Assembly (NCBI GenBank): GCA_011087645.1
Contig: JAALLF010000001.1
Coordinates: 143,687 to 207,686, forward strand
Direction: 5' to 3'
From: Alphaproteobacteria bacterium
Lineage (GTDB): Bacteria; Pseudomonadota; Alphaproteobacteria; UBA6615
DNA length: 64,000 bases
Part shown: positions 1,539-63,142 of the stretch, in pieces
How positions within the stretch are numbered: the first letter of the stretch is position 1
Layout of the letters: every line of letters starts with the position of its first letter
Notes under the pieces: model-generated
What the model was told of the DNA's origin: nothing
The model's database searches: none
Seen by the model: only the letters and a program-made list of their open reading frames with translations
Translations under genes and position numbers: made by a program

Positions 1539-3635
<2,097 letters not shown>

Positions 3636-3676
3636 GGTCCCAAAAGTTTCGAATTTAGCGACGCCTTAAGCCCCTC

Positions 3677-3790
3677 TCCCCGCGGGAGAGGGGTTGGGGT
3701 GAGGGGAAATAATTCATCCAGCAACTACTTCGCCGCCTACTTCCCCTCACCCGGTTCGCTTACGCTCACCACCCTCTCCCGGTGGGAGAG
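3677..3790. repeat. Composite GC-rich palindromic extragenic repeat (two CCCTCTCCC-loop-GGGAGAGGG hairpins flanking a GGGGTGAGGGG/CCCCTCACCC inverted pair); probable bidirectional terminator between convergent ligA and pepP
   Basis: Hairpin 1 at 3677-3699 (CCCCTCTCCCCGCGGGAGAGGGG), hairpin 2 at 3770-3790 (CCCTCTCCCGGTGGGAGAGGG), inner inverted repeat 3701-3713 vs 3743-3756; a related CCCCTCACCCCTCACCACCCTC copy sits at 596-620. Confidence 0.6.
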
Positions 3791-3795
3791 GGTTC

Positions 3796-5607
3796 TTAAT
3801 TCAGCGGTTGTGTGACTTCGGCGAGCCAGTTGCGTGTGGTTTCGTCCACCAGCGGACCAATCCCGGTCATCACCCTTGCGTGGTAGGCGTCGAGCCAGGC
3901 ACGTTCATCTGCGCTGAGCAACGACACTTCGATACAGGCCGGGTCGATCGGCGCCAAGGTGAGGGTTTCGAAACCCAGCATCTCCCGCTCTCCCCCCGCT
4001 ATACCGCCGACCGGCACCACGGCAACCAGGTTTTCGATGCGGATGCCGTAAGCGCCTTCCTTGTAATAGCCGGGTTCGTTGGAAACGATCATGCCCGCCT
4101 GCAGCGCCTGCCCTGTACCGGCCTTGGAAATCCGTTGCGGGCCTTCATGGACGCCGAGATAGCTGCCCACTCCATGGCCGGTGCCGTGATCGTAATCGAG
4201 GCCCGATTGCCACAGATATTGCCGGGCCAAGGCATCGAGTTGCCCGCCAGTGGTGCCTTTTGGAAACCGCGCCAGTGCTATCGCGATATGGCCCTTGAGG
4301 ACGCGGGTAAACCGGTCGCGCATCTCCTCGCTGGGCGCGCCGATCGCCACGGTGCGGGTGACATCTGTAGTACCGTCGAGATATTGCGCGCCGGAATCGA
4401 CGAGGTAGAGTTCGTCGGGGCGCAGCGGTCGGTCGGTCTCGGGGCTCACCCGATAGTGCACGATGGCGCCGTTCGGGCCGGCGCCGGAGATGGTGTCGAA
4501 ACTGAGTTCGCGAAACAGATCGCCATCACTGCGGATTTCGGCCAGTTTTTCGACCGCGCCGATTTCGGTGATCTCCCCCTCGGCCGCCGTCGCCGCCAGC
4601 CAAGCCAAAAACCGGGTCAAGGCAGCGCCGTCGCGCCGGTGGGCAGCGCGCGTGCCGTCAAGTTCGACCGCGTTCTTGATCGCTTTCGGCAAGGTCACCG
4701 GGTCCGCCGCCCGGCGAATATCGGCGCCGGCCGCGGTCAGCCGATCGAACACCCACGACGCGGCGGTATCCGGGCAGGCTTGCACCCGCGCGCCGGCATC
4801 ACCCAACCGGTCGAGCGCCGGTCCGAATGCGTCCGGGTCGTGGCAAGCAACGCCGTTGCCGAGATGAGCGATCAGCGCTTGGGAGGTCTTTGCCGGGTCG
4901 ACGAACCAGTCGACGGTGGCGTCGGCGTTCAAAATGGCGAAGCTCAGCGGCAGCGGTGTGTGGGATACATCGTTGCCCCGCACGTTGAACAGCCAGGCAA
5001 TCGAGTCCGGCTGGGTCAGGACGGTTGCGGCGATGTCGCCTTCGGTGAGTTTCTGCGCCAACTCCGCTCGCTTTTCGGTGCTGGCGCGGCCGGCAAAGCG
5101 CAGCTCGTGAGGCACCACCGGGGTTTGGGGCGGCGCCGGTTGATCGGTCCACTCCGCATCGACCGGGTTCGGGTCGACGGCGACGAGTTCGGCCCCGGCC
5201 TTGTCGCAGGCTTGGCGCAACCGATCGACGCCGCGCACCCCGTGTAGCCAGGGGTCATAGCCGAGCCGCGCGCCCTCGCTCAGATTTTCCGCGACCCAAT
5301 CGGTCGCCGGCGCCTCAATAAGATGGTGGAAACTATATAGATCGGCCTTCACCTGATTGCGCACCTGCAGCGTGTAGCGACCATCGACGAAAATCGCGGC
5401 TCGATCAGCCAAGATCACGGCCATACCGGCCGACCCGCTGAACCCGGTCAGCCAGGCCAGACGCTCGGCGCGCGGCGGCAGGAATTCGTTTTGATGCTCG
5501 TCGGCGTGCGGCACGATAAAACCATCGAGACCCGCCGCCGCCAAATGGGCGCGCAAGGCAGCAAGCTTTTCTGCTGGAGTCATCGGGGAATTGTTCGCTT
5601 GGGCCAT
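3796..5607 (-). CDS. Xaa-Pro aminopeptidase (aminopeptidase P, M24B family)
   Basis: 603 aa; N-terminal creatinase/prolidase-like domains and C-terminal pita-bread metal-binding motifs (HGTGHGVGSYLGVHEGP, NEPGYY). Confidence 0.85.
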   Translation of the reverse strand: MAQANNSPMTPAEKLAALRAHLAAAGLDGFIVPHADEHQNEFLPPRAERLAWLTGFSGSAGMAVILADRAAIFVDGRYTLQVRNQVKADLYSFHHLIEAPATDWVAENLSEGARLGYDPWLHGVRGVDRLRQACDKAGAELVAVDPNPVDAEWTDQPAPPQTPVVPHELRFAGRASTEKRAELAQKLTEGDIAATVLTQPDSIAWLFNVRGNDVSHTPLPLSFAILNADATVDWFVDPAKTSQALIAHLGNGVACHDPDAFGPALDRLGDAGARVQACPDTAASWVFDRLTAAGADIRRAADPVTLPKAIKNAVELDGTRAAHRRDGAALTRFLAWLAATAAEGEITEIGAVEKLAEIRSDGDLFRELSFDTISGAGPNGAIVHYRVSPETDRPLRPDELYLVDSGAQYLDGTTDVTRTVAIGAPSEEMRDRFTRVLKGHIAIALARFPKGTTGGQLDALARQYLWQSGLDYDHGTGHGVGSYLGVHEGPQRISKAGTGQALQAGMIVSNEPGYYKEGAYGIRIENLVAVVPVGGIAGGEREMLGFETLTLAPIDPACIEVSLLSADERAWLDAYHARVMTGIGPLVDETTRNWLAEVTQPLN

Positions 5608-5661
5608 GATCGAAAAGCTAATCTCGGGTTATCGGGAACACAATGGGGGTGTCGCAGCCCA

Positions 5662-6561
5662 TCAAATAGGGCGTCTCATGACCAAGGTCGACCAACCGTC
5701 GAGGCGGTAACGCGCGGTGAGAACCAGGCCTTGCTGCCGGTGGGCCGCGATGACCGGGCGTTCCTGGGTGGTCAGCAACCCCGATAGGACGGCATATCCG
5801 CCAGGCAACAGATGGCGGGCGCAGTCGGGCGCCATGCGGGCGATCGGCCGCGCCAAAATATTTGCCAGGATCAGCGCATAGGGACCGGCGCGGCGGATCG
5901 CATGGGCGGCATATCCCCGGCTGCAAATCGGTCGATGCACCGAACCCAGCCGGTTGGTCTGAACGTTGTAGCGAGCCATATCCACAGCAATCGGATCAAT
6001 ATCCGAAGCCATAACCCGCCGGCGCAAGCGAAGCGCCGCGGCCATGCCCAATATGCCGGTGCCACAGCCCATGTCGAGCACCGGCCCGACCTGTAACAGA
6101 CGCGGTCTGCGCGCAAAATGGTCGAGCGCCAGCAGACAGCCCTGGGTCGTGGGATGTTGGCCGGTGCCAAACGCCGTCGCCGCGTCCACCACGATGGTCA
6201 CCGTGCCGATCGGCGCCGGGTCGTCATGATAGGAATCGCGGATCCAAACTCCGCCGACACGAAGCGGGGTAAAACTTTCCCGGTTGACCGCTGCCCAGTC
6301 GATCGAAGGCAGCCAAATCACGTCCAGTGCCGGCATCGCGATTCCAGCAGCCCGCGACGCCGCTTTAATGTCGGCGCTTAACGCCGCTTCATCGGGCGCA
6401 TCGGCGACGTAACCGCGGATCCGCATGGCGTCGCCCGACGGCGCGGGGAACATGCTGATGGCGCTGGTATAGCTTTCAAGAGCATCGGCAATCGCCTCGC
6501 CGGCAGCCGCCGGAACGATGACTTCCACTTTCCAGCTGGGTTGCGCGGCGGGCCCGGTCAC
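5662..6561 (-). CDS. prmA: Ribosomal protein L11 methyltransferase
   Basis: 299 aa; PrmA-type SAM motif VLDMGCGTGILG, FGTGQHPTT substrate motif; start overlaps uvrD stop (ATGA). Confidence 0.85.
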   Translation of the reverse strand: MTGPAAQPSWKVEVIVPAAAGEAIADALESYTSAISMFPAPSGDAMRIRGYVADAPDEAALSADIKAASRAAGIAMPALDVIWLPSIDWAAVNRESFTPLRVGGVWIRDSYHDDPAPIGTVTIVVDAATAFGTGQHPTTQGCLLALDHFARRPRLLQVGPVLDMGCGTGILGMAAALRLRRRVMASDIDPIAVDMARYNVQTNRLGSVHRPICSRGYAAHAIRRAGPYALILANILARPIARMAPDCARHLLPGGYAVLSGLLTTQERPVIAAHRQQGLVLTARYRLDGWSTLVMRRPI

Positions 6562-8858
6562 ACGGCGTCGGCGGCCACGACAAAACTGTCGAGAACCTTC
6601 TTCTCGCCGGCCTTGTCGAAGGCGATCGCCAATTTGTTGCGATCAATCGAGGTGACTCGGCCATAACCGAATTTCTGGTGAAAGACCCGCTCGCCAACGC
6701 CAAACCCGACCGGCTCAGCCTCGATCAGGGTCGCTTGGGATTCGATCAACGGATCGGACCGCCGGCCACGCCATCCACCGCCCTGTCCACCCCCGGATCC
6801 GAAACTCGACAGCCGACTAGGTGACGCGCCGCCGCCCTCATAGATGCCCGGCTCACTTTCGACCAAGACATGCTTCGACGGCAGTTCGTCGACGAACCGC
6901 GACGGTATCGCGCTTTGCCATTGACCGTGGATGCGCCGATTGGCGGCAAACGAGACGATCGCCGACCGCTTGGCCCGGGTCAGGCCCACATAGGCCAGCC
7001 GGCGTTCTTCTTCCAGTCCCGCCGCGCCGTTTTCATCCATATTACGCTGATGGGGGAACAGCCCTTCCTCCCAGCCGGGCAGGAACACGGTGTCGAACTC
7101 CAAGCCCTTGGCGCCGTGCAGGGTCATGATATTGACCATGTCGGCGCCGGCATTCTCGGTATTCTCCATGACCAGCGAGACATGTTCGAGGAAGCCGCCG
7201 AGATTCTCGAACTCTTCCATCGCCGTGACCAACTCTTTCAAATTCTCCAACCGCCCCGGTGCTTCCGGCGATTTATCGTTCATCAGCATTTCGGTGTAGC
7301 CGCTTTCATCGAGCACCATTTCGGCCAGTTCCGGATGGGGCAGCGCCGCCGGTCCCTCGCCCGAAAGCGCCCGCCAGCGCGAAAAATCCGCCATCACCCC
7401 GGTCAGCGAGCTGCGGGTGCGCGGCTTCAGCTCGTCGGTGGTGACAATCTCGGCCGCCGCCCGGTACAGGCTGGTGCCACCGGCGCGGGCCAGCGCGTGC
7501 AGGGTCTGCACCGTCGCGTCGCCGATGCCGCGCTTGGGCCGGTTGACGATGCGTTCGAAGGCCAGATCGTCGTCGGGTTGGCGCACAATACGCAAATAGG
7601 CCAGGGCATCGCGGATTTCCAGGCGCTCATAAAAGCGCGGGCCGCCGATCACCCGGTAGGGAATACCCAGCTTCAAGAACCGTTCTTCGAATTCACGAGT
7701 TTGAAAACCGGCGCGCACCAAAATCGCCATGTCCTGTAGTGCGATCGGCGTGCCGTCGCGCCCACGGCGCTGTAGATCCTCGATATGGTCGGAGATGAAG
7801 CGCGCTTCCTCCTCGCCGTCCCACAGCCCCCGCACGATGATGGGATCACCGCCCTTGCCTGCTGTCCATAGGGTTTTGCCGAGCCGTCCCTCATTGTTGG
7901 AAATCAGCGCCGAGGCGGCGGCCAGGATCGGCGCGGTCGAGCGATAGTTCTGCTCGAGGCGGACTACCTTGGCGCCGGGGAAATCTTCCTCGAAACGCAG
8001 GATGTTGCCAACCTCGGCGCCGCGCCAGGCGTAGATCGACTGGTCATCGTCGCCGACACAAGCGATGTTGCGATGGCCTTGGGCCAACAGGCGCAGCCAC
8101 AGATATTGCGCGACGTTGGTGTCCTGATATTCGTCGACCAGGATATAGCGAAAGCGCTGCTGATACTCATTGAGCACGTCTTCGTGCTGGTTGAATATGG
8201 TCAAACAGTGCAGCAGAAGATCGCCGAAATCTGCCGCGTTCAGCGTGCGCAGGCGATCCTGATATTCCTCATACAGGGTGACCAAGCGGCCGCCTGCCAT
8301 ATCGCCGGCCTCGGCCGCCGAGACCTTGTCGGGTGTCAGCCCGCGGTCCTTCCAGCGTTGGATCACGCCCATCATCACCCGCGCCGGCCACCGCTTGCTG
8401 TCGATGTCGCTGGCTTCGAGCAATTGCTTTAGCAAGCGCACCTGATCGTCGGTGTCGAGAATGGTGAAATTAGACTGCAGGCCGACCAGTTCACCGTGAC
8501 GGCGCAACATGCGCGCGCCCAGCGCGTGAAAGGTCCCTAGCCAGATAGCCTCGGCCGGTCCGCCGACCAGATCGGCCACCCGCTCGCGCATTTCGCGCGC
8601 CGCCTTATTGGTAAACGTGACCGCCAGCACCTCATAGGGGCGCACTTGGCGGAACCGCAGCAGATGGGCGAGACGGGTGGTGAGAACGCGCGTTTTGCCG
8701 GTTCCCGCGCCCGCCAAGACGAGGGTCGGCCCGTCCAACGCCTCGACCGCGTCGCGCTGCGCCTCGTTGAGTTGCGCGAGATAGGCCGCGCCGGCGGCAA
8801 CACTGTTGGCGGCAGGCGGTTGTGGCTCTTCGTCTTCGATGTGAAACGGATCGGTCAT
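6558..8858 (-). CDS. uvrD: ATP-dependent DNA helicase UvrD (DNA helicase II)
   Basis: 766 aa; SF1 helicase motifs I (AGAGTGKT), II (VDEYQDTN), VI etc.; C-terminal extension typical of UvrD. Confidence 0.9.
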   Translation of the reverse strand: MTDPFHIEDEEPQPPAANSVAAGAAYLAQLNEAQRDAVEALDGPTLVLAGAGTGKTRVLTTRLAHLLRFRQVRPYEVLAVTFTNKAAREMRERVADLVGGPAEAIWLGTFHALGARMLRRHGELVGLQSNFTILDTDDQVRLLKQLLEASDIDSKRWPARVMMGVIQRWKDRGLTPDKVSAAEAGDMAGGRLVTLYEEYQDRLRTLNAADFGDLLLHCLTIFNQHEDVLNEYQQRFRYILVDEYQDTNVAQYLWLRLLAQGHRNIACVGDDDQSIYAWRGAEVGNILRFEEDFPGAKVVRLEQNYRSTAPILAAASALISNNEGRLGKTLWTAGKGGDPIIVRGLWDGEEEARFISDHIEDLQRRGRDGTPIALQDMAILVRAGFQTREFEERFLKLGIPYRVIGGPRFYERLEIRDALAYLRIVRQPDDDLAFERIVNRPKRGIGDATVQTLHALARAGGTSLYRAAAEIVTTDELKPRTRSSLTGVMADFSRWRALSGEGPAALPHPELAEMVLDESGYTEMLMNDKSPEAPGRLENLKELVTAMEEFENLGGFLEHVSLVMENTENAGADMVNIMTLHGAKGLEFDTVFLPGWEEGLFPHQRNMDENGAAGLEEERRLAYVGLTRAKRSAIVSFAANRRIHGQWQSAIPSRFVDELPSKHVLVESEPGIYEGGGASPSRLSSFGSGGGQGGGWRGRRSDPLIESQATLIEAEPVGFGVGERVFHQKFGYGRVTSIDRNKLAIAFDKAGEKKVLDSFVVAADAV

Positions 8859-9013
8859 GGGCGAAGCCGATTATATCACGCACAAATCATGAGTCGCCGC
8901 TCCCCCTCAGGCACGCAAACGTTATTCAAACAATCGCGTGATCGCGTATCGGGTGCGCGACTCCAATGCTAGTCTTTATATAGGGGAAGCTGACCCCTGG
9001 CGAATATGGGGAC

Positions 9014-56801: not shown

Positions 56802-57419
56802 ATGGCCGCGCTTGATTTAGCCTCGATTGACTCCGCTTCGGCGAGCCACGACCCGTTCGATTACGTCATCGTACCCGGCGTTATTTCCAGCGATGTCTTA
56901 CCGGCGATTCACCAAGACTTTCCCAAAATCGACAAGCCGGGCAGTTACCCGGTGTCGCAGCTCGACTATGGACCGCGCTTCGACGCACTGCTCGATGAAT
57001 TGCGGTCTGCCCCATTCGCCGAACGGGTCGGCGCCAAATTAGGCATCGAGCTGACCGGCCGGCCAACGATGATCACCGTGCGCGGCCAGTGCCGCGCCAC
57101 CGATGGTAAGATACATACCGATTCTGCTGGCAAGCTGGTCACCGTCCTGCTGTACCTCAACCCGTCCTGGGAGGCGCCGGGCGGCCAGTTGCGCCTGCTG
57201 CACAACGACCATGACCTGGAAAATTATGCCGCCGAGGTGCCCCCGCAAGAGGGCACTATGGTCGCCTTCACCTGCCGCCCCGACGCTTGGCACGGTCACC
57301 ACAGTTTCGAGGGCCAGCGCCGTACGATCCAGCTAAACTGGGTGCGCAGCCGGGGTTATAAAATGCGCGAACAGGTACGCCATGGCCTATCGGCCAGTTT
57401 GAAGAAAATAACCGGCTAA
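56802..57419 (+). CDS. 2OG-Fe(II) oxygenase superfamily protein (prolyl-hydroxylase-like)
   Basis: 205 aa; facial triad HTD ... H (IHTDSAGK, WHGHHSF) and Arg for 2OG binding (RRTIQLNW). Confidence 0.65.
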   Translation: MAALDLASIDSASASHDPFDYVIVPGVISSDVLPAIHQDFPKIDKPGSYPVSQLDYGPRFDALLDELRSAPFAERVGAKLGIELTGRPTMITVRGQCRATDGKIHTDSAGKLVTVLLYLNPSWEAPGGQLRLLHNDHDLENYAAEVPPQEGTMVAFTCRPDAWHGHHSFEGQRRTIQLNWVRSRGYKMREQVRHGLSASLKKITG

Positions 57420-57502: not shown

Positions 57503-59431
57503 GTGGGTCATCCCGCCGCCGCGCCGAAAGTGCGCGACCTGCTCACACGTTTAGCCGGGCGCGGTTCGGTGGCGGTCTACGATCCCACGGGCTTTGCGAC
57601 AGCGTTCGCCGAGATCTATCCGCTGGCCGACCTCGATATTGCCCACGTCTATGTGCAGGACCTGGCGGCGCTGGGCCAACAGATCCTCGGCCGCGCGACC
57701 CAGCCGGTGACCGATCTGGCCGCCGCCGAAGTCCCGTCGCTGCTGGTAGTCGCCTTCGACGCCGACAAAATCGTGCGCGACATCGCCCACCTGGTGCCGC
57801 CAGGCACCGAAATTGCGACCCTCGACGAGGTTCGCCTCGACGAGAACCGGCTGACCAACCCGCGGCGCTACCTCGACCCGCTCAATTTCGCCACAAACTT
57901 CGCCTGGTTCCGCGATGCGCCGGATAGCCGCGGCGGGCATCTGCACACAAGGGTGGCGACGGCCAATTATTGGCACCGCTATGGCGCCCACGACGTCACT
58001 CTATGGCTCACCTTGCTCGACGAGACCGGGGCGCCGGTCGCCGAATGGGAGCAGGCGCTGCCCGACTCTCCGGCCGGGGTTACCATCGACAGCGTCGCGA
58101 TCCGCCAGCGCTTCGGCCTCGGCGATTTCACCGGCCAGTTGCTGATCCACGCCGTTGGCGTCGCCGGCCACGACATCGTCAAATATGCCCTCGACACGTT
58201 CGGCGACGATGCGAGGGACCTTTCCTGCACCCACGACGCCAACGCTTGGCCGGCGGATTTTTATGCCGGCCTGCCGGCGCCCCAAGCCGATGAACGGGTG
58301 GTGCTGTGGATCCAGAACAGCCATCCCTGCCCGATCCCCGCCGACACCGTCGGGCTCAATGTTATGGGCGACGATAAAGGCGCGGTCTTTCTCAACGCCG
58401 AAATTCCGCCCTTCGCGACCCATGCGCTGAATGTCGCGCAACTGCTGCCCGAGACCCAATGGCCGCAACAACTCGAAGTGCGCGCCGGCAAGCATTTCGT
58501 GCGGCCGCGCTACGAGATCGAGAGGACGACGGATGACGGCGGCAGCCAACGGCGCATGGCCCACGCCAATGTGGAGCGCACCGATCTGGAGCCGGACCCG
58601 CAGATCGCCGAAATCGGCAACCTCATGGGCAAGGGCTTCCTGCTACCCGCGCCGGTGCTGCCGCCCGAGCGTTACCGCTCGATCCTACTACCGACGCCGA
58701 TGGCGACGACCCAACAGACCCTGCCGGTTGCGGCCCTGGTTTACGACGCGCAAGGCCGCGAGGTTGCTCGCCACGATTTCGGTGAACTGGTCCGCACCGA
58801 CAGCGTGGCCATCGACGCGGAGCAAATCGGCGGCGGCGCGCTCAACGGCGACGCCGGACATATGGAGCTAGTCTACGACTTCCCCGCCGCAACGCGCGGC
58901 GTCGATGGCTGGCTGCACGCGCTGTTCCGCTATGAAGACCGGGTGACCGGCCACGCCGCGGAATCGAGCTTCGGCGCCCATATTTTCAATACCGTGCTGA
59001 CCTGGAAGGGCGAGCCGCAGTCCTATACCGGCAACCCGCCGGGCCTGTCGACGCGCCTGTTCCTGCGCACCGCGCCCAGCATGGCGGTCCCCGGCGCGGC
59101 GACCAAGGGCGACGGCGACGACACATTCTGCCATTTGATCTACCCGGCCTCGACGCCGTGGCACGGCGCCTCGCAGACCAACCTCACCCTGCACGCCGGC
59201 GACGGTAGCGAAGTGGCGACCCGCACCGTCAATATCGCGTGTGGCGGCTCGCTCTATTGGCGCTTGTCCGACATGTTCGACAAAGCCGAGCGCCAACGCG
59301 CCGCCGAACCGGGCCCGGTGGGCGGCGGCTATGTGCTGATCCGCGATACCACCTGCCGCCTATTCGGCTATCATGGCCTGATCGCCGCCGACGGCGCGGC
59401 GTTCAGCTTGGACCATATGTTCGGATTTTAG
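57503..59431 (+). CDS. Large hypothetical protein (642 aa), no recognizable family
   Basis: Single uninterrupted ORF with codon usage like neighbours; no signal peptide, no known motifs detected by eye. Confidence 0.45.
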   Translation: MGHPAAAPKVRDLLTRLAGRGSVAVYDPTGFATAFAEIYPLADLDIAHVYVQDLAALGQQILGRATQPVTDLAAAEVPSLLVVAFDADKIVRDIAHLVPPGTEIATLDEVRLDENRLTNPRRYLDPLNFATNFAWFRDAPDSRGGHLHTRVATANYWHRYGAHDVTLWLTLLDETGAPVAEWEQALPDSPAGVTIDSVAIRQRFGLGDFTGQLLIHAVGVAGHDIVKYALDTFGDDARDLSCTHDANAWPADFYAGLPAPQADERVVLWIQNSHPCPIPADTVGLNVMGDDKGAVFLNAEIPPFATHALNVAQLLPETQWPQQLEVRAGKHFVRPRYEIERTTDDGGSQRRMAHANVERTDLEPDPQIAEIGNLMGKGFLLPAPVLPPERYRSILLPTPMATTQQTLPVAALVYDAQGREVARHDFGELVRTDSVAIDAEQIGGGALNGDAGHMELVYDFPAATRGVDGWLHALFRYEDRVTGHAAESSFGAHIFNTVLTWKGEPQSYTGNPPGLSTRLFLRTAPSMAVPGAATKGDGDDTFCHLIYPASTPWHGASQTNLTLHAGDGSEVATRTVNIACGGSLYWRLSDMFDKAERQRAAEPGPVGGGYVLIRDTTCRLFGYHGLIAADGAAFSLDHMFGF

Positions 59432-59449: not shown

Positions 59450-60181
59450 ATGGGCGAAAAAGAATCGACGATCGCCACCGCCGACGGCGAGATGTACGCG
59501 TTTTCCGCCTGGCCCGACGATGACGGGCCGCACCCGGTTGTGGTGATGTATATGGACGCGCCGGGCATCCGCGAGGAGCTGCGTAACTTCGCCCGCCGCA
59601 TCGCCGCCCAGGGTTATTACGCGCTGCTGCCTGATCTGTACTACCGGCTGGGCGACATCCGCTTTAACCTAAAAAATCGCAACGAGAAGATGGGCGAGAT
59701 GATCTTCGCCGCCTGGCATAGTCTGAGCAATGCCGGGGTGGCCAGCGACACCGCGGCGATGCTCGATTTTCTAGGGTCTGAAACCGCCGCGTCCGACGGT
59801 CCCATGGGCTGCGTCGGCTATTGCATGAGCGGCGCCTACATAGTCACCGTGGCCGGCACCTACCCCGATCGCTTTGCCGCCAACGCCTCGCTCTACGGGG
59901 TGTGGATCGTCACCGAGCACGACGATTCGCCCCATCTGCTGGCCGGCAAAATTCAGGGCGAGATGTATCTCGCCTTCGCCGAGCACGACCATTGGGTGCC
60001 CGACAATGTCATTCCAGATCTCACCGCCGCCTTCGACGCCAACGGCATTACTCATGAGATCGAGACCTATCCCGGCACCGAGCACGGCTACGCCTTCCCC
60101 GAGCGCGACATGTATAACGAGGCCGCCGCCGAGGCGACCTGGGAGAAGATGTTCGCGCTCTATGCCCGCACGCTGGGGTAG
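59450..60181 (+). CDS. Dienelactone hydrolase family protein
   Basis: 243 aa; alpha/beta-hydrolase DLH motifs (nucleophile elbow GYCMSG, His in GTEHGYA). Confidence 0.8.
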   Translation: MGEKESTIATADGEMYAFSAWPDDDGPHPVVVMYMDAPGIREELRNFARRIAAQGYYALLPDLYYRLGDIRFNLKNRNEKMGEMIFAAWHSLSNAGVASDTAAMLDFLGSETAASDGPMGCVGYCMSGAYIVTVAGTYPDRFAANASLYGVWIVTEHDDSPHLLAGKIQGEMYLAFAEHDHWVPDNVIPDLTAAFDANGITHEIETYPGTEHGYAFPERDMYNEAAAEATWEKMFALYARTLG

Positions 60182-60277
60182 AGGCTCGCCTCCCTCTTAA
60201 ACGGCCTTTAAACGCTGACGTTTACAACGTACCTTTAATTACGCTATAAATGTTCTTGTTTTGTTCTGGATTGAAAT

Positions 60278-61048
60278 ATGGCCGACAAATCATCTATCGA
60301 ATGGACAAACGCGACGTGGAACCCGGTTACGGGCTGCACAAAGATTAGCGCGGGCTGCGATAATTGTTACGCAGAGCGCTTTGCTGAGAGATTTCGCGGG
60401 GTACCGGATCATCCGTTCGAAACCGGGTTCGACCTTACACTTCGACCGGATCGGCTTAAGCAGCCGCTGAGCTGGAAGCAACATCGGATGATCTTTGTGA
60501 ATTCGATGAGCGACCTGTTCCATAAGGGCGTGAGCAACGATTTTATCGATCAAGTATTCGATACGATGGAAGAGGCGCACCATCACACGTTTCAGATTTT
60601 GACCAAGCGCAGTTCAAGAATGCGCAATTACGTCGACGCACGGTACGGCGACGACACCGCGCCGCGACATATCTGGCTGGGGACGTCGGTTGAGGACGGA
60701 ACCAAGAAATCGCGAATTCGGCACATTCAAAGAATGGCTGCGACGGTTCGGTTTCTCTCCATCGAACCTCTGATCGGTCCGGTCGGAGAGCTTGATCTCG
60801 ACGGCATCCATTGGGTCATTGTTGGCGGCGAAAGCGGTCCACGCGCACGTCCTATTGATCCTGAATGGGTCCGCGATATTCGCGATCAATGCCAGGAAAC
60901 CAATGTGGCCTTCTTCTTCAAGCAGTGGGGCGGATTTCGGCCGAAGTCGGGAGGACGGATGCTGGATGGCCAGGAATGGAGCGAGTTTCCGACACTGATT
61001 GATTCGCCTTCATCTCAGTCTGTTTTCATAACGAACCCAGGTGAATGA
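60278..61048 (+). CDS. Phage Gp37/Gp68 (DUF5131) family three-Cys-motif protein
   Basis: 256 aa; N-terminal IEWTNATWNPVTGCTKISAGCDNCYAE (C-x6-C-x2-C), HHH triplet, C-terminal WVIVGGESGP...FFFKQWGG typical of this family; lower GC than flanks. Confidence 0.7.
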   Translation: MADKSSIEWTNATWNPVTGCTKISAGCDNCYAERFAERFRGVPDHPFETGFDLTLRPDRLKQPLSWKQHRMIFVNSMSDLFHKGVSNDFIDQVFDTMEEAHHHTFQILTKRSSRMRNYVDARYGDDTAPRHIWLGTSVEDGTKKSRIRHIQRMAATVRFLSIEPLIGPVGELDLDGIHWVIVGGESGPRARPIDPEWVRDIRDQCQETNVAFFFKQWGGFRPKSGGRMLDGQEWSEFPTLIDSPSSQSVFITNPGE

Positions 61049-61965
61049 CGAGTTATAAGCAAGACGGAACTGTCGGGCCATGGGCCCACGAAAAGCTGGA
61101 TTGCTTGGGCAAATACTTGGCCGCGTATACGACTGTCCTCCGCAAAAGATCTTGGTGTGAAGGTTATTTCTACATTGATGCATTTGCCGGTGCCGGAAAG
61201 GCCCCATTAAGAAAAGAACAGGCTGGCACACCTGCCGAGCGGCAGGTTCAACAAGCTATATTCGAAGACTTGGTGCAAAGTGCCGACGATAACGACAAGT
61301 CAACTTATGTCGAAGGGTCGCCATACGTGGCGCTCGACATTCCACACCCATTCACTCGCTACTATTTCATAGATTTGAATTCCGAACTTACTTCGAAATT
61401 GAACTCAATAGCCGATGAATATGGAGACACACGCGACATTCGCATACTTCCAGCTGACGCCAATCATGCGATCACCGAAAATATTCTAGGAGATACCAGC
61501 ATAAACTGGCGCAAAAACCGCGCGGTAATATTTCTCGACCCATTCGGCATGCAAGTGAAGTGGGACACCATAGCAAAAATCGCGACCACTAACGCGATTG
61601 AGATCATCGTCAATCTTCCCGTGGGAATGGCTATTCAGCGATTGTTGGCTCGTTCGGGCGAGATAAGCGAGGCTCGTCGTAATACTCTTAATGAATATTT
61701 CGGAACGGACGAATGGGAAAATATCGTCTATGAACAATCTACCGACTTATTTGGCGACCGCGTCGACAAGGTGGAAAACTCAGGACATAGGCTCGCGCGT
61801 TGGTACCAAGGTCGCCTGAAGGAGGCATTCGGATACGCCTCACCGGCGAGACTAATTAGAAACTCTCAACGCGGTCATCTGTATTACTTGTTATGGGCTG
61901 GTCCAAATAAGACAGGTGCTAAGATCGCCACACACGTATTGAGCCAAGGCGAAGCGATCGATTAG
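61045..61965 (+). CDS. Three-Cys-motif partner protein (TcmP-like), methyltransferase-fold-like
   Basis: 306 aa; start overlaps upstream stop (ATGA); motifs FYIDAFAGAGK (Gly-rich motif I-like) and VIFLDPFG (motif IV (D/N)PP(F/Y)-like). Confidence 0.6.
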   Translation: MTSYKQDGTVGPWAHEKLDCLGKYLAAYTTVLRKRSWCEGYFYIDAFAGAGKAPLRKEQAGTPAERQVQQAIFEDLVQSADDNDKSTYVEGSPYVALDIPHPFTRYYFIDLNSELTSKLNSIADEYGDTRDIRILPADANHAITENILGDTSINWRKNRAVIFLDPFGMQVKWDTIAKIATTNAIEIIVNLPVGMAIQRLLARSGEISEARRNTLNEYFGTDEWENIVYEQSTDLFGDRVDKVENSGHRLARWYQGRLKEAFGYASPARLIRNSQRGHLYYLLWAGPNKTGAKIATHVLSQGEAID

Positions 61966-62032
61966 AACCCTTGCGTCTCGCCCGGTCGGCTGAAACAATT
62001 CTAAAAATAATAGTTCAGGGGGAGTTACCATC

Positions 62033-63142
62033 ATGGATACCCGCGCCGCGGTCGCGCATGAAGCCGGCCAACCGCTTGCCATCGAAACCGTACAGCTCGA
62101 CGGGCCGAAAGCCGGCGAAGTGCTGGTCGAGATCAAGGCCACCGGCATCTGTCATACCGACGAATTCACGCTCTCGGGCGCCGATCCGGAGGGGCTGTTC
62201 CCGTCCGTCCTCGGCCATGAGGGCGCCGGCGTGGTGGTCGATGTGGGGCCCGGGGTCAACAGCCTCAAGCCCGGCGACCATGTCATTCCGCTCTACACGC
62301 CGGAATGCCGCACTTGCGACTATTGTTTAAGCGGCAAGACCAATCTCTGCCAGTCGATCCGCGAGACCCAGGGCCAGGGCGTCATGCCCGACGGCTCATC
62401 GCGTTTCTCGCTCGGCGGCGATCCGCTGTTCCACTATATGGGCACCTCGACCTTCTCCAACTTCACCGTCTTGCCCGAGATCGCGGCGGCAAAAATTCGC
62501 GAGGACGCGCCGTTCGAGAAGGTCTGCTACATCGGCTGCGGCGTCACCACCGGCCTCGGCGCGGTGATCAACACGGCCAAGGTCCAGCCCGGCGAGAATG
62601 TGGTGGTGTTCGGGCTCGGCGGCATCGGCCTCAACGTCATTCAGGGCGCACGGCTAGTCGGCGCCGATATGATCGTCGGCGTTGATTTAAACCCGGAGCG
62701 CCGCGCCATCGCCGAAAAATTCGGCATGACCCATTTCGTCAATCCAAAAGAGGTCGACGGCGACCTGGTGGCCTACTTGGTCGATTTGACCAAGGGCGGC
62801 GCCGACCATTCGTTCGAGTGCATCGGCAACGTGGAAGTGATGCGCCAAGCATTGGAATGCTGTCACAAGGGATGGGGCAAATCGACCATCATCGGCGTTG
62901 CCCCGGCGGGTGCCGAGATCGCCACCCGGCCGTTCCAATTGGTCACCGGACGGGTCTGGCAAGGCACCGCGTTCGGCGGCGCAAAAGGCCGCACCGACGT
63001 ACCGAAAATCGTCGATTGGTATATGGACGGCAAGATCAATATCGACGATCTGATCACCCATGTGATGCCGTTGGACGAGATCAACAACGCCTTCGACTTG
63101 ATGCACAAGGGCGAATCGATCCGCAGCGTGGTGACGTTCTAA
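62033..63142 (+). CDS. frmA: S-(hydroxymethyl)glutathione dehydrogenase / class III alcohol dehydrogenase
   Basis: 369 aa; Zn-ADH motifs ([18 protein letters not shown], structural Zn CxxCxxC...C: [15 protein letters not shown]) and NAD fold GLGGIGLNV; near-colinear with FrmA/AdhC. Confidence 0.92.

What the first reader, a model, noticed from the sequence alone, without database searches (positions are those of the whole stretch)
61045..61965. TcmP-like partner carries degenerate methyltransferase motifs I and IV
The translation has a Gly-rich FYIDAFAGAGK block at about residues 41-51 and VIFLDPFG about 115 residues later. This order and spacing resemble motif I (FxGxG) and motif IV ((D/N)PP(Y/F), here DPF with one Pro missing) of gamma-class amino-methyltransferases such as RsmD (DPPF). 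This suggests a Rossmann-fold methyltransferase-like protein, possibly with altered or lost catalysis, acting on nucleic acid together with its Cys-motif partner.
Basis: inference. Interest (0 to 1): 0.6.

Follow-up and report, generated by a model that had tools for sequence, protein, structure and literature searches.

The report
RlmJ-like methyltransferase-fold partner of radical-SAM enzyme
The gene encodes TcmP, which folds like a SAM-dependent methyltransferase, is a distant relative of the rRNA adenine methylase RlmJ, and almost always sits beside (sometimes fused to) a radical-SAM enzyme; this gives an uncharacterised, widespread candidate anti-phage gene pair a testable mechanism.

Summary
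ORF 61045-61965 (+) encodes a 306-aa TcmP (TIGR04474). It carries DAFAGAG (residues 45-51) and LDPFG (164-168). These are the two best-conserved blocks in 118 homologues down to about 30% identity: D45, F47 and D165 are invariant, and residue 167 is aromatic in 115 of 118.

The AlphaFold2 model (pLDDT 83) has a class I Rossmann methyltransferase topology. Foldseek returns almost only SAM-dependent methyltransferases. A family profile finds only the rRNA m6A methylase RlmJ among solved structures (E 5e-5; hhalign 95.8%). The RlmJ residues that hold SAM and the catalytic Asp all have conserved counterparts. The motifs are therefore a conserved variant, DP[FY]G in place of DPPY, not degenerate ones.

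The upstream gene is a radical-SAM-superfamily DUF5131 protein with a Cx6CxxC motif, and its stop overlaps the TcmP start (ATGA). In 76 of 77 evaluable genome loci, TcmP sits beside a radical-SAM protein. The partner is DUF5131 in 69 (8 of them fused into one ORF), PA0069/Rv2578c-like in 4, and spore-photoproduct-lyase-like in 3.

The pair lies in a low-GC islet and matches PADLOC's untested candidate defence system PDC-M41. Its chemistry and substrate are inferred, not shown. My best guess is a SAM-binding, base-flipping subunit that works with the radical-SAM enzyme on DNA.

The parts
61045..61965 (+). tcmP: 306-aa three-Cys-motif partner protein, with a class I SAM-methyltransferase fold and remote homology to RlmJ
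   Evidence: ORF. TIGR04474 E 1.8e-53, 182 bits against a cutoff of 53. PADLOC PDC-M41A E 1.4e-71. AF2 model pLDDT 83, pTM 0.84. Foldseek hits are SAM methyltransferases. RlmJ profile match.
61177..61197 (+). Motif I, D45-A-F-A-G-A-G51, at the end of strand beta-1 (SAM-binding loop)
   Evidence: D45 and F47 are invariant; G49 115/118, G51 106/118. It aligns to RlmJ D40-T-H42-A-G-A-G46. RlmJ H42 stacks on the SAM adenine (PMC3814359).
61093..61095 (+). K17 in the N-terminal helix, a candidate equivalent of the RlmJ motif X Lys18
   Evidence: K in 116/118 and W13 in 117/118. Equivalence to RlmJ K18 is inferred from position only; hhalign does not align this part.
61198..61308 (+). Variable insert (residues 52-88) between motif I and the conserved GSP, at the position of the RlmJ helical subdomain
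   Evidence: Least conserved segment: top-residue frequency 0.33 in alignment A1 and 0.18 in A2. The model shows helices 63-78 and 82-97, with low pLDDT over 48-59. The RlmJ helical subdomain spans residues 47-98.
61366..61374 (+). Motif II: F108-I-D110, the acidic residue at the end of strand beta-2 (SAM ribose contact)
   Evidence: Position 110 is acidic in 118/118 (E 89, D 29). It aligns to RlmJ E118, which hydrogen-bonds the ribose.
61456..61464 (+). Motif III: D138-A-N140, after strand beta-3 (SAM adenine contact)
   Evidence: D 90 and E 16 of 118; N140 in 107/118. It aligns to RlmJ D143-G-F145.
61531..61548 (+). Motif IV variant: F163-L-D165-P-F167-G168, at the end of strand beta-4 (catalytic loop)
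   Evidence: D165 118/118, P166 117, residue 167 aromatic in 115, G168 106. Across the wider set the motif reads DPFG or DPYG. It aligns to RlmJ I163-D164-P-P-Y167, with one Pro missing.
60278..61048 (+). Partner gene: 256-aa DUF5131 (phage Gp37/Gp68 family), a member of the radical-SAM superfamily
   Evidence: PF07505 E 1.2e-100. rSAM_mob_pairA E 8.5e-24, below the family cutoff. PDC-M41B E 9e-106. RadicalSAM.org lists DUF5131 in Megacluster-5-2 and spore photoproduct lyase in Megacluster-5-3 (PMC9477430). AF2 model pLDDT 77; Foldseek gives no significant hit, and the best TM-score (0.42) is to spore photoproduct lyase 4fhg.
60335..60367 (+). Three-Cys motif C20-x6-C27-x2-C30 of the partner
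   Evidence: C20, C27 and C30 are invariant. The CxxxxxxCxxC pattern occurs in 68 of the DUF5131 ORFs in the related loci.
60824..60838 (+). G183-G-E-S-G187 of the partner, resembling the GGE SAM-binding motif of radical-SAM enzymes
   Evidence: G183, G184, E185, S186 and G187 are invariant or nearly so. Assignment to the GGE motif rests on my own knowledge of radical-SAM enzymes, not on a test here.
61045..61048 (+). ATGA overlap between the partner's stop codon and the tcmP start codon (likely translational coupling)
   Evidence: Read directly from the sequence.
60200..62000 (.). Low-GC two-gene islet between ordinary metabolic genes
   Evidence: GC is 48-57% inside against 60-69% in the flanks. 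The flanks are a dienelactone hydrolase (59450-60181) and a zinc alcohol dehydrogenase (62033-63142). No flanking repeats were found.

Best explanation
TcmP is a class I (Rossmann-fold) SAM-binding protein of the amino-methyltransferase lineage and a remote homologue of the 23S rRNA m6A2030 methylase RlmJ. It keeps the RlmJ positions that hold SAM: motif I D45/F47/G49/G51, motif II E/D110 and motif III D138. It also keeps the catalytic Asp (D165), followed by an aromatic residue, in a family-specific motif IV, D-P-[F/Y]-G.

It is the dedicated partner of a radical-SAM enzyme belonging to, or related to, the spore-photoproduct-lyase group. Here that partner is DUF5131, probably translationally coupled through an ATGA overlap; in other genomes the two are fused into one polypeptide.

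Proposed mechanism (inferred). The two proteins form a complex on nucleic acid, most likely DNA. TcmP binds SAM, and its variable insert contributes to target choice. It flips a base bearing an exocyclic amine (adenine, by analogy with RlmJ) into the D165/F167 pocket and methylates it, or holds it there. The radical-SAM subunit then performs radical chemistry on the same or a neighbouring nucleotide.

The pair behaves as a mobile accessory module (PADLOC candidate defence system PDC-M41).

Shown here: the fold, the homology to RlmJ, motif conservation, and adjacency or fusion with radical-SAM partners. Inferred: SAM binding, base flipping, methyl transfer, DNA as substrate, and a defence role.
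For: Fold:
- AF2 model with pLDDT 83. Strands fall at 40-47, 105-109, 132-135, 158-165 and 185-192, each followed by a helix.
- Foldseek against the PDB gives 17 hits at E<=1e-3, all SAM-dependent methyltransferase-fold enzymes. The BFVD viral library gives the same picture.

Homology:
- The profile of 118 sequences hits only RlmJ chains significantly in the PDB (E 5e-5). The next hits are an RsmD-like methylase and the Legionella RlmJ homologue.
- hhalign against RlmJ gives 94.5-95.8%, E 8e-8 to 7e-9, over about 150 columns.

Residue mapping onto the RlmJ crystal structures (PMC3814359):
- F47 to H42, E/D110 to E118, L111 to L119, D138 to D143, D165 to D164.
- All are conserved in TcmP.
- Motif I and motif IV are the best-conserved blocks of the family.

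Precedent: E. coli RsmJ, annotated as the 16S rRNA m2G1516 methyltransferase, has the single-Pro motif YLDPMFPH.

Partnership, across 80 loci from many phyla:
- 69 have DUF5131 next door, in both gene orders. Eight of these are single-ORF fusions, and a fused protein is confirmed by Pfam.
- 4 have a PA0069/Rv2578c-like radical-SAM gene and 3 have a spore-photoproduct-lyase-family gene instead.
- 3 sit at contig ends, and 1 is a truncated TcmP with no partner.

Leaning towards DNA:
- Spore photoproduct lyase is a DNA enzyme.
- The long TcmP paralogue (PDC-M30A) carries a winged-helix domain.
- About 10-12 loci lie beside type I restriction-modification genes.
- The PDC candidate systems were defined by being embedded inside known defence systems.
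- The window copy sits in a low-GC islet.
Against: - No biochemical data exist for any TcmP or DUF5131 protein.
- The second Pro of (D/N)PP(Y/F) is missing. RlmJ H6 and W195 have no conserved counterpart, and Y4 is matched only in one subfamily.
- The window protein has no Pfam hit at all. Homologues' hits to PF04378 are all below threshold.
- Foldseek TM-scores are low (0.3-0.4), and RlmJ itself is not among the top 50 structural hits.
- hhalign does not cover the N-terminal helix or the C-terminal 100 residues.
- RlmJ acts on RNA and did not methylate single-stranded DNA, so DNA as substrate is only an inference.
- The DUF5131 model has no significant structural match.
- The defence role is untested, and the gene is rare in phages (5 of 50,697 records; 9 loci in IMG/VR).
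Confidence: 0.6

Rival explanations
1. TcmP is a non-catalytic methyltransferase-fold subunit (a pseudoenzyme or adaptor). It recognises the target and presents a flipped base to the radical-SAM enzyme, which does all the chemistry. TcmP transfers no methyl group. This would resemble METTL14 supporting METTL3.
For: - Motif IV lacks one Pro, and RlmJ H6 and W195 are not conserved.
- TcmP is always paired with, or fused to, an enzyme that itself uses SAM.
- TcmP diverges faster than its partner: 48-58% against 71-88% identity in the top hits.
- It has a hypervariable insert, as a specificity subunit would.
Against: - D165, the acidic residue 110, D138, F47 and the glycine loop are invariant or nearly so across 118 sequences. 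From my own knowledge, SAM-site residues usually decay in dead methyltransferase paralogues.
- E. coli RsmJ, annotated as an m2G methyltransferase, has a single-Pro motif IV.
Confidence: 0.22
2. TcmP is a small-molecule or nucleotide methyltransferase. The pair would make a modified nucleotide or metabolite (viperin-like antiviral chemistry) rather than act on polymeric nucleic acid.
For: The top Foldseek hits are small-molecule SAM enzymes: AzeJ, EgtD, CmoA and spermidine synthase. Viperin-type radical-SAM enzymes make antiviral nucleotides (own knowledge). The SPL-like partner has a weak viperin hit, E 0.005.
Against: - Every sequence-profile match is to nucleic-acid amino-methyltransferases: RlmJ and RsmD.
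- The partners belong to the group that contains the DNA enzyme spore photoproduct lyase.
- A paralogue carries a winged-helix domain.
- The Foldseek ranking at TM 0.3-0.4 only establishes the general fold.
Confidence: 0.08
3. TcmP is a housekeeping rRNA or tRNA methyltransferase like RlmJ, and its position next to DUF5131 has no functional meaning.
For: The closest solved relative is an rRNA m6A methylase.
Against: - The window copy lies in a low-GC islet between unrelated metabolic genes.
- The family is found on plasmids, beside restriction-modification genes and in prophage lysogeny modules.
- Adjacency to a radical-SAM gene holds in 76 of 77 evaluable loci, in several gene orders and as fusions.
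Confidence: 0.05
4. The two motifs are chance look-alikes in a protein with an unrelated fold.
For: Short motifs such as FxGxG and DPF occur by chance in single sequences, and Pfam finds no domain.
Against: The motifs are invariant across the family. The profile match to RlmJ is significant and aligns both motifs. The predicted fold is a class I methyltransferase.
Confidence: 0.02

Closest known systems
RlmJ (YhiR; PF04378), the 23S rRNA m6A2030 methyltransferase of E. coli
   Same: - Class I methyltransferase fold, with a helical insert directly after motif I.
- Motif I, D-x-[H/F]-A-G-x-G, and a conserved G-S-P after the insert.
- An acidic residue at motif II, an Asp at motif III, and a catalytic Asp at motif IV after a hydrophobic strand.
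- A conserved Lys in the first helix.
- It is the only significant PDB sequence match.
   Different: - Motif IV is DP[F/Y]G, not DPPY.
- RlmJ H6 and W195 are not conserved, and Y4 is matched only in the MTSY subfamily.
- No hit reaches the Pfam threshold.
- RlmJ works alone on rRNA helix 72. TcmP is always paired with, or fused to, a radical-SAM protein and is carried on mobile or accessory DNA.
RsmD (PF03602, DPPF) and RsmJ (YLDPMFPH), 16S rRNA m2G methyltransferases
   Same: Small amino-methyltransferases with the same order of motifs. PF03602 is weakly hit by 9 of 118 TcmP homologues. E. coli RsmJ, annotated as the m2G1516 methyltransferase, shows a motif IV with only one Pro.
   Different: hhalign of TcmP against RsmJ is not significant (probability 0.5%). 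Neither has a radical-SAM partner or the helical insert.
DNA m6A methyltransferases M.TaqI and T4 Dam ((N/D)PPY)
   Same: The Asp/Asn plus aromatic catalytic loop after strand beta-4, which receives a flipped adenine. The RlmJ active site was described as being closest to these enzymes.
   Different: No detectable sequence match here, TcmP has no separate target-recognition domain, and the PP dipeptide is absent.
Spore photoproduct lyase and related radical-SAM proteins (DUF5131, PA0069/Rv2578c/MJ0683-like)
   Same: All three kinds of TcmP neighbour belong to or resemble this group. Spore photoproduct lyase acts on a flipped-out DNA lesion (own knowledge).
   Different: Spore photoproduct lyase works without a methyltransferase-fold partner. 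DUF5131 has Cx6CxxC rather than CxxxCxxC, and no solved structure matches it.
PADLOC candidate systems PDC-M41 and PDC-M30
   Same: Both window proteins match the PDC-M41 A and B models (E 1e-71 and 9e-106), and the genes are adjacent.
   Different: These are untested 'guilt-by-embedding' predictions with no mechanism attached. TcmP paired with the PA0069-like or SPL-like radical-SAM partners is not covered, because those partners have no PADLOC hit.

Membership tests
TcmP (NCBIfam TIGR04474, three-Cys-motif partner protein) | Score above the curated cutoff of the family model | tested here: met
   182.1 bits against a cutoff of 53, E 1.8e-53, covering residues 12-300.
TcmP (NCBIfam TIGR04474, three-Cys-motif partner protein) | Encoded next to a three-Cys-motif (radical-SAM-like) protein | tested here: met
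   DUF5131 with C20-x6-C27-x2-C30 lies directly upstream, with an ATGA overlap. The same pairing holds in 76 of 77 evaluable loci.
Class I (Rossmann-fold) SAM-dependent methyltransferases | Alternating beta/alpha core, with structural neighbours that are SAM methyltransferases | tested here: met
   AF2 model with pLDDT 83. Foldseek against PDB and BFVD returns almost only SAM methyltransferases, probability up to 1.0, E down to 3e-5. TM-scores are only 0.3-0.4.
Class I (Rossmann-fold) SAM-dependent methyltransferases | Glycine-rich motif I after beta-1 and an acidic residue at the end of beta-2 | tested here: met
   DAFAGxG: D45 and F47 in 118/118, G49 in 115, G51 in 106. Position 110 is acidic in 118/118.
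Class I (Rossmann-fold) SAM-dependent methyltransferases | Binds SAM | not testable with these tools
   This needs ITC, thermal shift or a co-crystal structure.
RlmJ family (PF04378) | Score above the Pfam gathering threshold | tested here: not met
   The window protein has no Pfam hit. 14 of 118 homologues give sub-threshold hits, best E 2e-4. The relation appears only at profile level.
RlmJ family (PF04378) | Motif IV D-P-P-[Y/F] | tested here: not met
   TcmP has D-P-[F/Y]-G, with one Pro missing. This is conserved across the family.
RlmJ family (PF04378) | N-terminal motif X residues Y4, H6 and K18, which are needed for activity | tested here: inconclusive
   K17 is present in 116/118. An MxxY start occurs in 93 of about 213 homologues, including this one (MTSY). 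There is no His at position 6. hhalign does not align this region.
RlmJ family (PF04378) | Helical subdomain inserted after motif I | tested here: inconclusive
   The model has helices 63-78 and 82-97 between beta-1 and the GSP motif, at the same place as RlmJ residues 47-98. The pLDDT there is 42-65 and the sequence is not conserved.
Gamma-type amino-methyltransferases ((D/N/S)PP(Y/F/W)) | Order motif I, II, III, IV with the catalytic loop after beta-4 | tested here: met
   Motif I at residues 45-51, II at 108-110, III at 138-140 and IV at 163-168, on successive strands of the model.
Gamma-type amino-methyltransferases ((D/N/S)PP(Y/F/W)) | The Pro-Pro dipeptide in motif IV | tested here: not met
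   TcmP has a single Pro (P166, 117/118) followed directly by the aromatic residue. E. coli RsmJ shows the similar single-Pro form DPMF.
PADLOC PDC-M41 (candidate anti-phage system) | Adjacent genes matching the A and B models | tested here: met
   PDC-M41A E 1.4e-71 and PDC-M41B E 9.3e-106, on overlapping genes.
PADLOC PDC-M41 (candidate anti-phage system) | Protects against phage | not testable with these tools
   The PDC systems are predictions from embedding within known defence systems, and no test of M41 or M30 was found.

The most novel reading that the evidence does not exclude
TcmP and its radical-SAM partner form a previously undescribed two-enzyme machine for nucleic-acid chemistry. 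An RlmJ-like subunit binds SAM and flips a base out of DNA. It hands that base, or its N-methylated form, to a radical-SAM enzyme related to spore photoproduct lyase. The product is a new DNA modification or a targeted lesion, used in conflicts between bacteria and phages. The same TcmP module would have been recruited by three different radical-SAM families.
Probability: 0.25. Interest if true: 0.8.

Novelty: new variant of a known kind. Interest (0 to 1): 0.55.

Why it matters
TcmP and its DUF5131 partner are widespread. The representative library holds 2,747 clusters at E<=1e-3. More than 520 stretches in the one-genome-per-species collection encode a relative, in many phyla. Yet neither protein has a known function. 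Pfam assigns TcmP no domain, and I found no paper describing its fold.

Three results turn an anonymous 'partner protein' into a specific hypothesis that can be tested by mutagenesis:
- TcmP is a remote RlmJ relative with an intact SAM site.
- It has a conserved single-Pro catalytic loop.
- It is tied, by adjacency and by fusion, to three families of radical-SAM enzymes related to spore photoproduct lyase.

The result also suggests what the untested candidate defence systems PDC-M41 and PDC-M30 might do: act on bases in DNA.

Tried and rejected
- The homologue search for RlmJ returned only close relatives (83% identity or more). It raised the hhalign probability only slightly, from 94.5% to 95.8%.
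- hhalign of TcmP against E. coli RsmJ was not significant. RsmJ is therefore used only as a precedent for a single-Pro motif IV.
- A DUF5131 profile found nothing among PDB sequences. The DUF5131 AF2 model had no significant Foldseek hit; spore photoproduct lyase had the best TM-score, 0.42. This is consistent with a partial TIM-barrel radical-SAM fold but does not prove it.
- The wide alignment A2 was too divergent for the genome scan, so A1 was used instead.
- No flanking repeats mark the islet. Promoter and terminator scans were at background level.
- Literature searches for TcmP, DUF5131, PDC-M41, RlmJ-like and related terms found only incidental mentions and no functional study.
- The shared N-terminal M-x-S-Y of TcmP and RlmJ is suggestive. 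It holds only in one subfamily and is not supported by hhalign, so it carries no weight here.
The distances K17-D165 and F167-pocket could not be measured.
Full report
**1. The observation**

ORF 61045-61965 on the + strand is real and encodes 306 residues. FYIDAFAGAGK occupies residues 42-52 and VIFLDPFG residues 161-168. F47 and D165 are 118 residues apart.

**2. What the gene is called**

[quoted passage not shown] It has no Pfam domain.
- The upstream ORF, 60278-61048 (+), is a DUF5131 / phage Gp37-Gp68 protein (PF07505, E 1e-100). Its stop codon overlaps the tcmP start codon as ATGA.
- PADLOC matches the two proteins to PDC-M41A and PDC-M41B (E 1e-71 and 9e-106).
- The PDC systems are untested candidates. 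They were proposed because they are found embedded inside known defence systems.

**3. Are the motifs conserved?**

I collected 436 homologues from the 90%-clustered collection. The 50%-clustered library holds 2,747 clusters at E<=1e-3.

In an alignment of 118 sequences at 29-72% identity to the query, the counts are:

| Element | Residue | Conservation (of 118) |
|---|---|---|
| Motif I | D45 | 118 |
| Motif I | F47 | 118 |
| Motif I | G49 | 115 |
| Motif I | G51 | 106 |
| Motif IV | D165 | 118 |
| Motif IV | P166 | 117 |
| Motif IV | residue 167 | F 59, Y 54, W 2 |
| Motif IV | G168 | 106 |

- Across all full-length hits the motif reads DPFG or DPYG.
- The strand-plus-motif blocks 40-51 and 158-173 are the two best-conserved segments of the family. 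The segment between motif I and a conserved G-S-P (residues 52-88) is the most variable.
Position 110, at the end of the second strand, is acidic in 118/118. Position 138, after the third strand, is D in 90 and E in 16, followed by N140 in 107.

**4. Fold**

- AlphaFold2 on a 41-sequence alignment gave mean pLDDT 83 and pTM 0.84.
- The model has strands at 40-47, 105-109, 132-135, 158-165 and 185-192, alternating with helices. A C-terminal antiparallel extension follows. Two helices (63-78, 82-97) are inserted after motif I.
- Foldseek against the PDB gave 17 hits at E<=1e-3, all SAM-dependent methyltransferase-fold enzymes: AzeJ, EgtD, YecO (a CmoA homologue), VioH, the echinomycin thioacetal-forming methyltransferase (4nec) and a structural-genomics methyltransferase (1y8c). 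Probabilities reach 1.0.
- The BFVD viral library gave the same picture.
- TM-scores are low (0.3-0.4). This establishes the fold class, not a specific relative.

**5. Closest relative**

- A profile of the 118 sequences, searched against all PDB sequences, hit only RlmJ chains significantly (E 5e-5). The remaining weak hits were an RsmD-like methylase and the Legionella RlmJ homologue.
- hhalign against E. coli RlmJ gave 94.5% (E 8e-8). Against a small RlmJ alignment it gave 95.8% (E 7e-9) over 151 columns.
- Scanned one by one, 14 of 118 TcmP homologues give sub-threshold Pfam hits to RlmJ (PF04378), and 9 to the RsmD family (PF03602).

The alignment pairs TcmP residues with RlmJ residues as follows:

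| RlmJ residue | Role in RlmJ | TcmP residue |
|---|---|---|
| H42 | stacks on the SAM adenine | F47 |
| E118 | binds the ribose | E/D110 |
| L119 | packs against the adenine | L111 |
| D143 | binds the adenine | D138 |
| D164 | catalytic; D164A is dead | D165 |

- RlmJ also has a helical subdomain (residues 47-98) inserted exactly where TcmP has its variable insert.

Differences from RlmJ:

- One Pro of DPPY is missing.
- H6 and W195 have no conserved counterpart.
- The N-terminal Tyr is shared only by the subfamily that starts MTSY, which includes this protein.
- K17 (116/118) may correspond to the essential K18, but hhalign does not cover that helix.

TcmP is therefore a remote homologue of RlmJ, not a member of its family. 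E. coli RsmJ, annotated as the 16S rRNA m2G1516 methyltransferase, reads YLDPMFPH at motif IV. A single Pro is thus not in itself a sign of inactivity.

**6. The partner**

- DUF5131 has invariant C20-x6-C27-x2-C30 and an invariant GGESG.
- It weakly matches 'radical SAM mobile pair protein A' (E 8.5e-24, below the family cutoff).
- RadicalSAM.org lists DUF5131 in Megacluster-5-2, with spore photoproduct lyase in Megacluster-5-3 (PMC9477430).
- Its AF2 model (pLDDT 77) has no significant PDB neighbour. Among the TIM-barrel-like hits, spore photoproduct lyase has the highest TM-score, 0.42.

**7. Genomic association**

I examined 80 loci from the one-genome-per-species collection, covering many phyla:

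| Neighbour of TcmP | Loci | Notes |
|---|---|---|
| DUF5131 | 69 | Upstream in close relatives, downstream in distant ones. 8 are fused into one ORF of about 560 aa, DUF5131 first. A fused protein is confirmed by Pfam. |
| PA0069/Rv2578c-like radical-SAM gene (CxxxCxxC) | 4 | |
| Spore-photoproduct-lyase-family gene (PF20903, E 1e-31 to 1e-34) | 3 | |
| Contig end, neighbour not visible | 3 | - |
| None; TcmP truncated | 1 | - |

- So 76 of 77 evaluable loci pair TcmP with a radical-SAM-superfamily protein, drawn from three families related to spore photoproduct lyase.
- No third gene is generally conserved. One group of 10-12 alphaproteobacterial loci lies beside type I restriction-modification genes.
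- In the window, the pair is a low-GC islet (48-57% against 60-69%) between a dienelactone hydrolase and a zinc alcohol dehydrogenase.
- TcmP is rare in phage genomes: 5 of 50,697 records and 9 loci in IMG/VR.
- In Gordonia phage BaxterFox it sits next to the immunity repressor, with a convergent DUF5131.
- On S. meliloti pSymA it follows the Hna defence helicase gene. A longer paralogue there (PDC-M30A) carries a winged-helix domain.

**8. Interpretation**

- *Shown:* TcmP is a class I methyltransferase-fold protein distantly related to RlmJ. Every SAM-contacting position and the catalytic Asp are conserved. It has a family-specific DP[F/Y]G loop. It is a dedicated partner of radical-SAM enzymes, sometimes fused to them.
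- *Inferred:* it binds SAM and receives a flipped base carrying an exocyclic amine. It either methylates that base or holds it for the radical-SAM subunit. The substrate is DNA, and the module serves in phage-host conflict.
- The main rival is a non-catalytic adaptor role. The faster divergence of TcmP relative to its partner favours that rival. The strict retention of the SAM-site and catalytic residues counts against it.
- Small-molecule chemistry and a housekeeping RNA role are less likely.

**9. Novelty**

- The family and the gene pair are already catalogued (TIGR04474; PDC-M41), but without a fold assignment or a mechanism. I found no paper on either.
- I rate it a new variant of a known kind: an amino-methyltransferase-lineage protein with a single-Pro catalytic loop and an obligate radical-SAM partner. 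The interest is moderate.

Noticed in passing
L082:4927-5940 (-), Gordonia phage BaxterFox NC_031226: A strong DUF5131 ORF (phmmer E 9e-87), convergent with the TcmP-like gp42, is not annotated. The record instead annotates gp39-41 on the opposite strand over the same DNA. TcmP-like gp42 lies directly downstream of the immunity repressor gp43.
   Followed up: partly
L070:4875-6839 (-), Lyngbya sp. PCC 8106: The radical-SAM gene next to TcmP is 654 aa. An intein with a LAGLIDADG homing endonuclease is inserted directly after the CLHGCTFC cluster motif. It matches the intein-containing Rv2578c-family model (E 4e-38).
   Followed up: partly
L084 (S. meliloti 1021 pSymA): 3346-5883 (+), 5962-6888 (+), 6906-8153 (-), 8189-9007 (-): The Hna defence helicase gene is followed by tcmP. 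Convergent to them lie a DUF5131 gene and a 415-aa TcmP paralogue (PDC-M30A) that carries a C-terminal GMT-like winged-helix domain (PF22560, E 4e-7). There are therefore two TcmP-type genes and one DUF5131 at this locus.
   Followed up: partly
L048, L057, L058, L030: In several genomes TcmP is split into two ORFs. In L048 the halves are about 1.1 kb apart. In L030 TcmP is truncated at the N-terminus and has no radical-SAM neighbour. These may be decaying copies.
   Followed up: no
window 57503-59431 (+): A 642-aa ORF upstream of the dienelactone hydrolase has no Pfam match. It follows a 2OG-Fe(II) oxygenase gene at 56802-57419.
   Followed up: no
window 60278-61048 compared with 61045-61965: The DUF5131 partner is far better conserved among its top database hits (71-88% identity) than TcmP is among its own (48-58%). 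This is the pattern expected of a conserved catalytic subunit paired with a diverging specificity subunit.
   Followed up: partly
window 61045-61056 (residues 1-4, MTSY): This TcmP subfamily starts M-T-S-Y. RlmJ starts M-L-S-Y, and its Y4 is essential for catalysis. 93 of about 213 homologues share the MxxY start; the rest have shorter tails without Tyr. hhalign does not support the equivalence.
   Followed up: partly
L031-L043 group (for example L037:9621-11186, L031:5419-7803, L043:8491-9645): About 10-12 Rhodobacterales and Hyphomicrobiales loci carry the DUF5131-TcmP pair (with a constant 27-nt gap) next to ORFs whose size and N-terminal sequence look like type I restriction-modification hsdM, hsdR and hsdS. 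These were not scanned against any family library. The arrangement fits the 'embedded in defence systems' origin of PDC-M41.
   Followed up: partly
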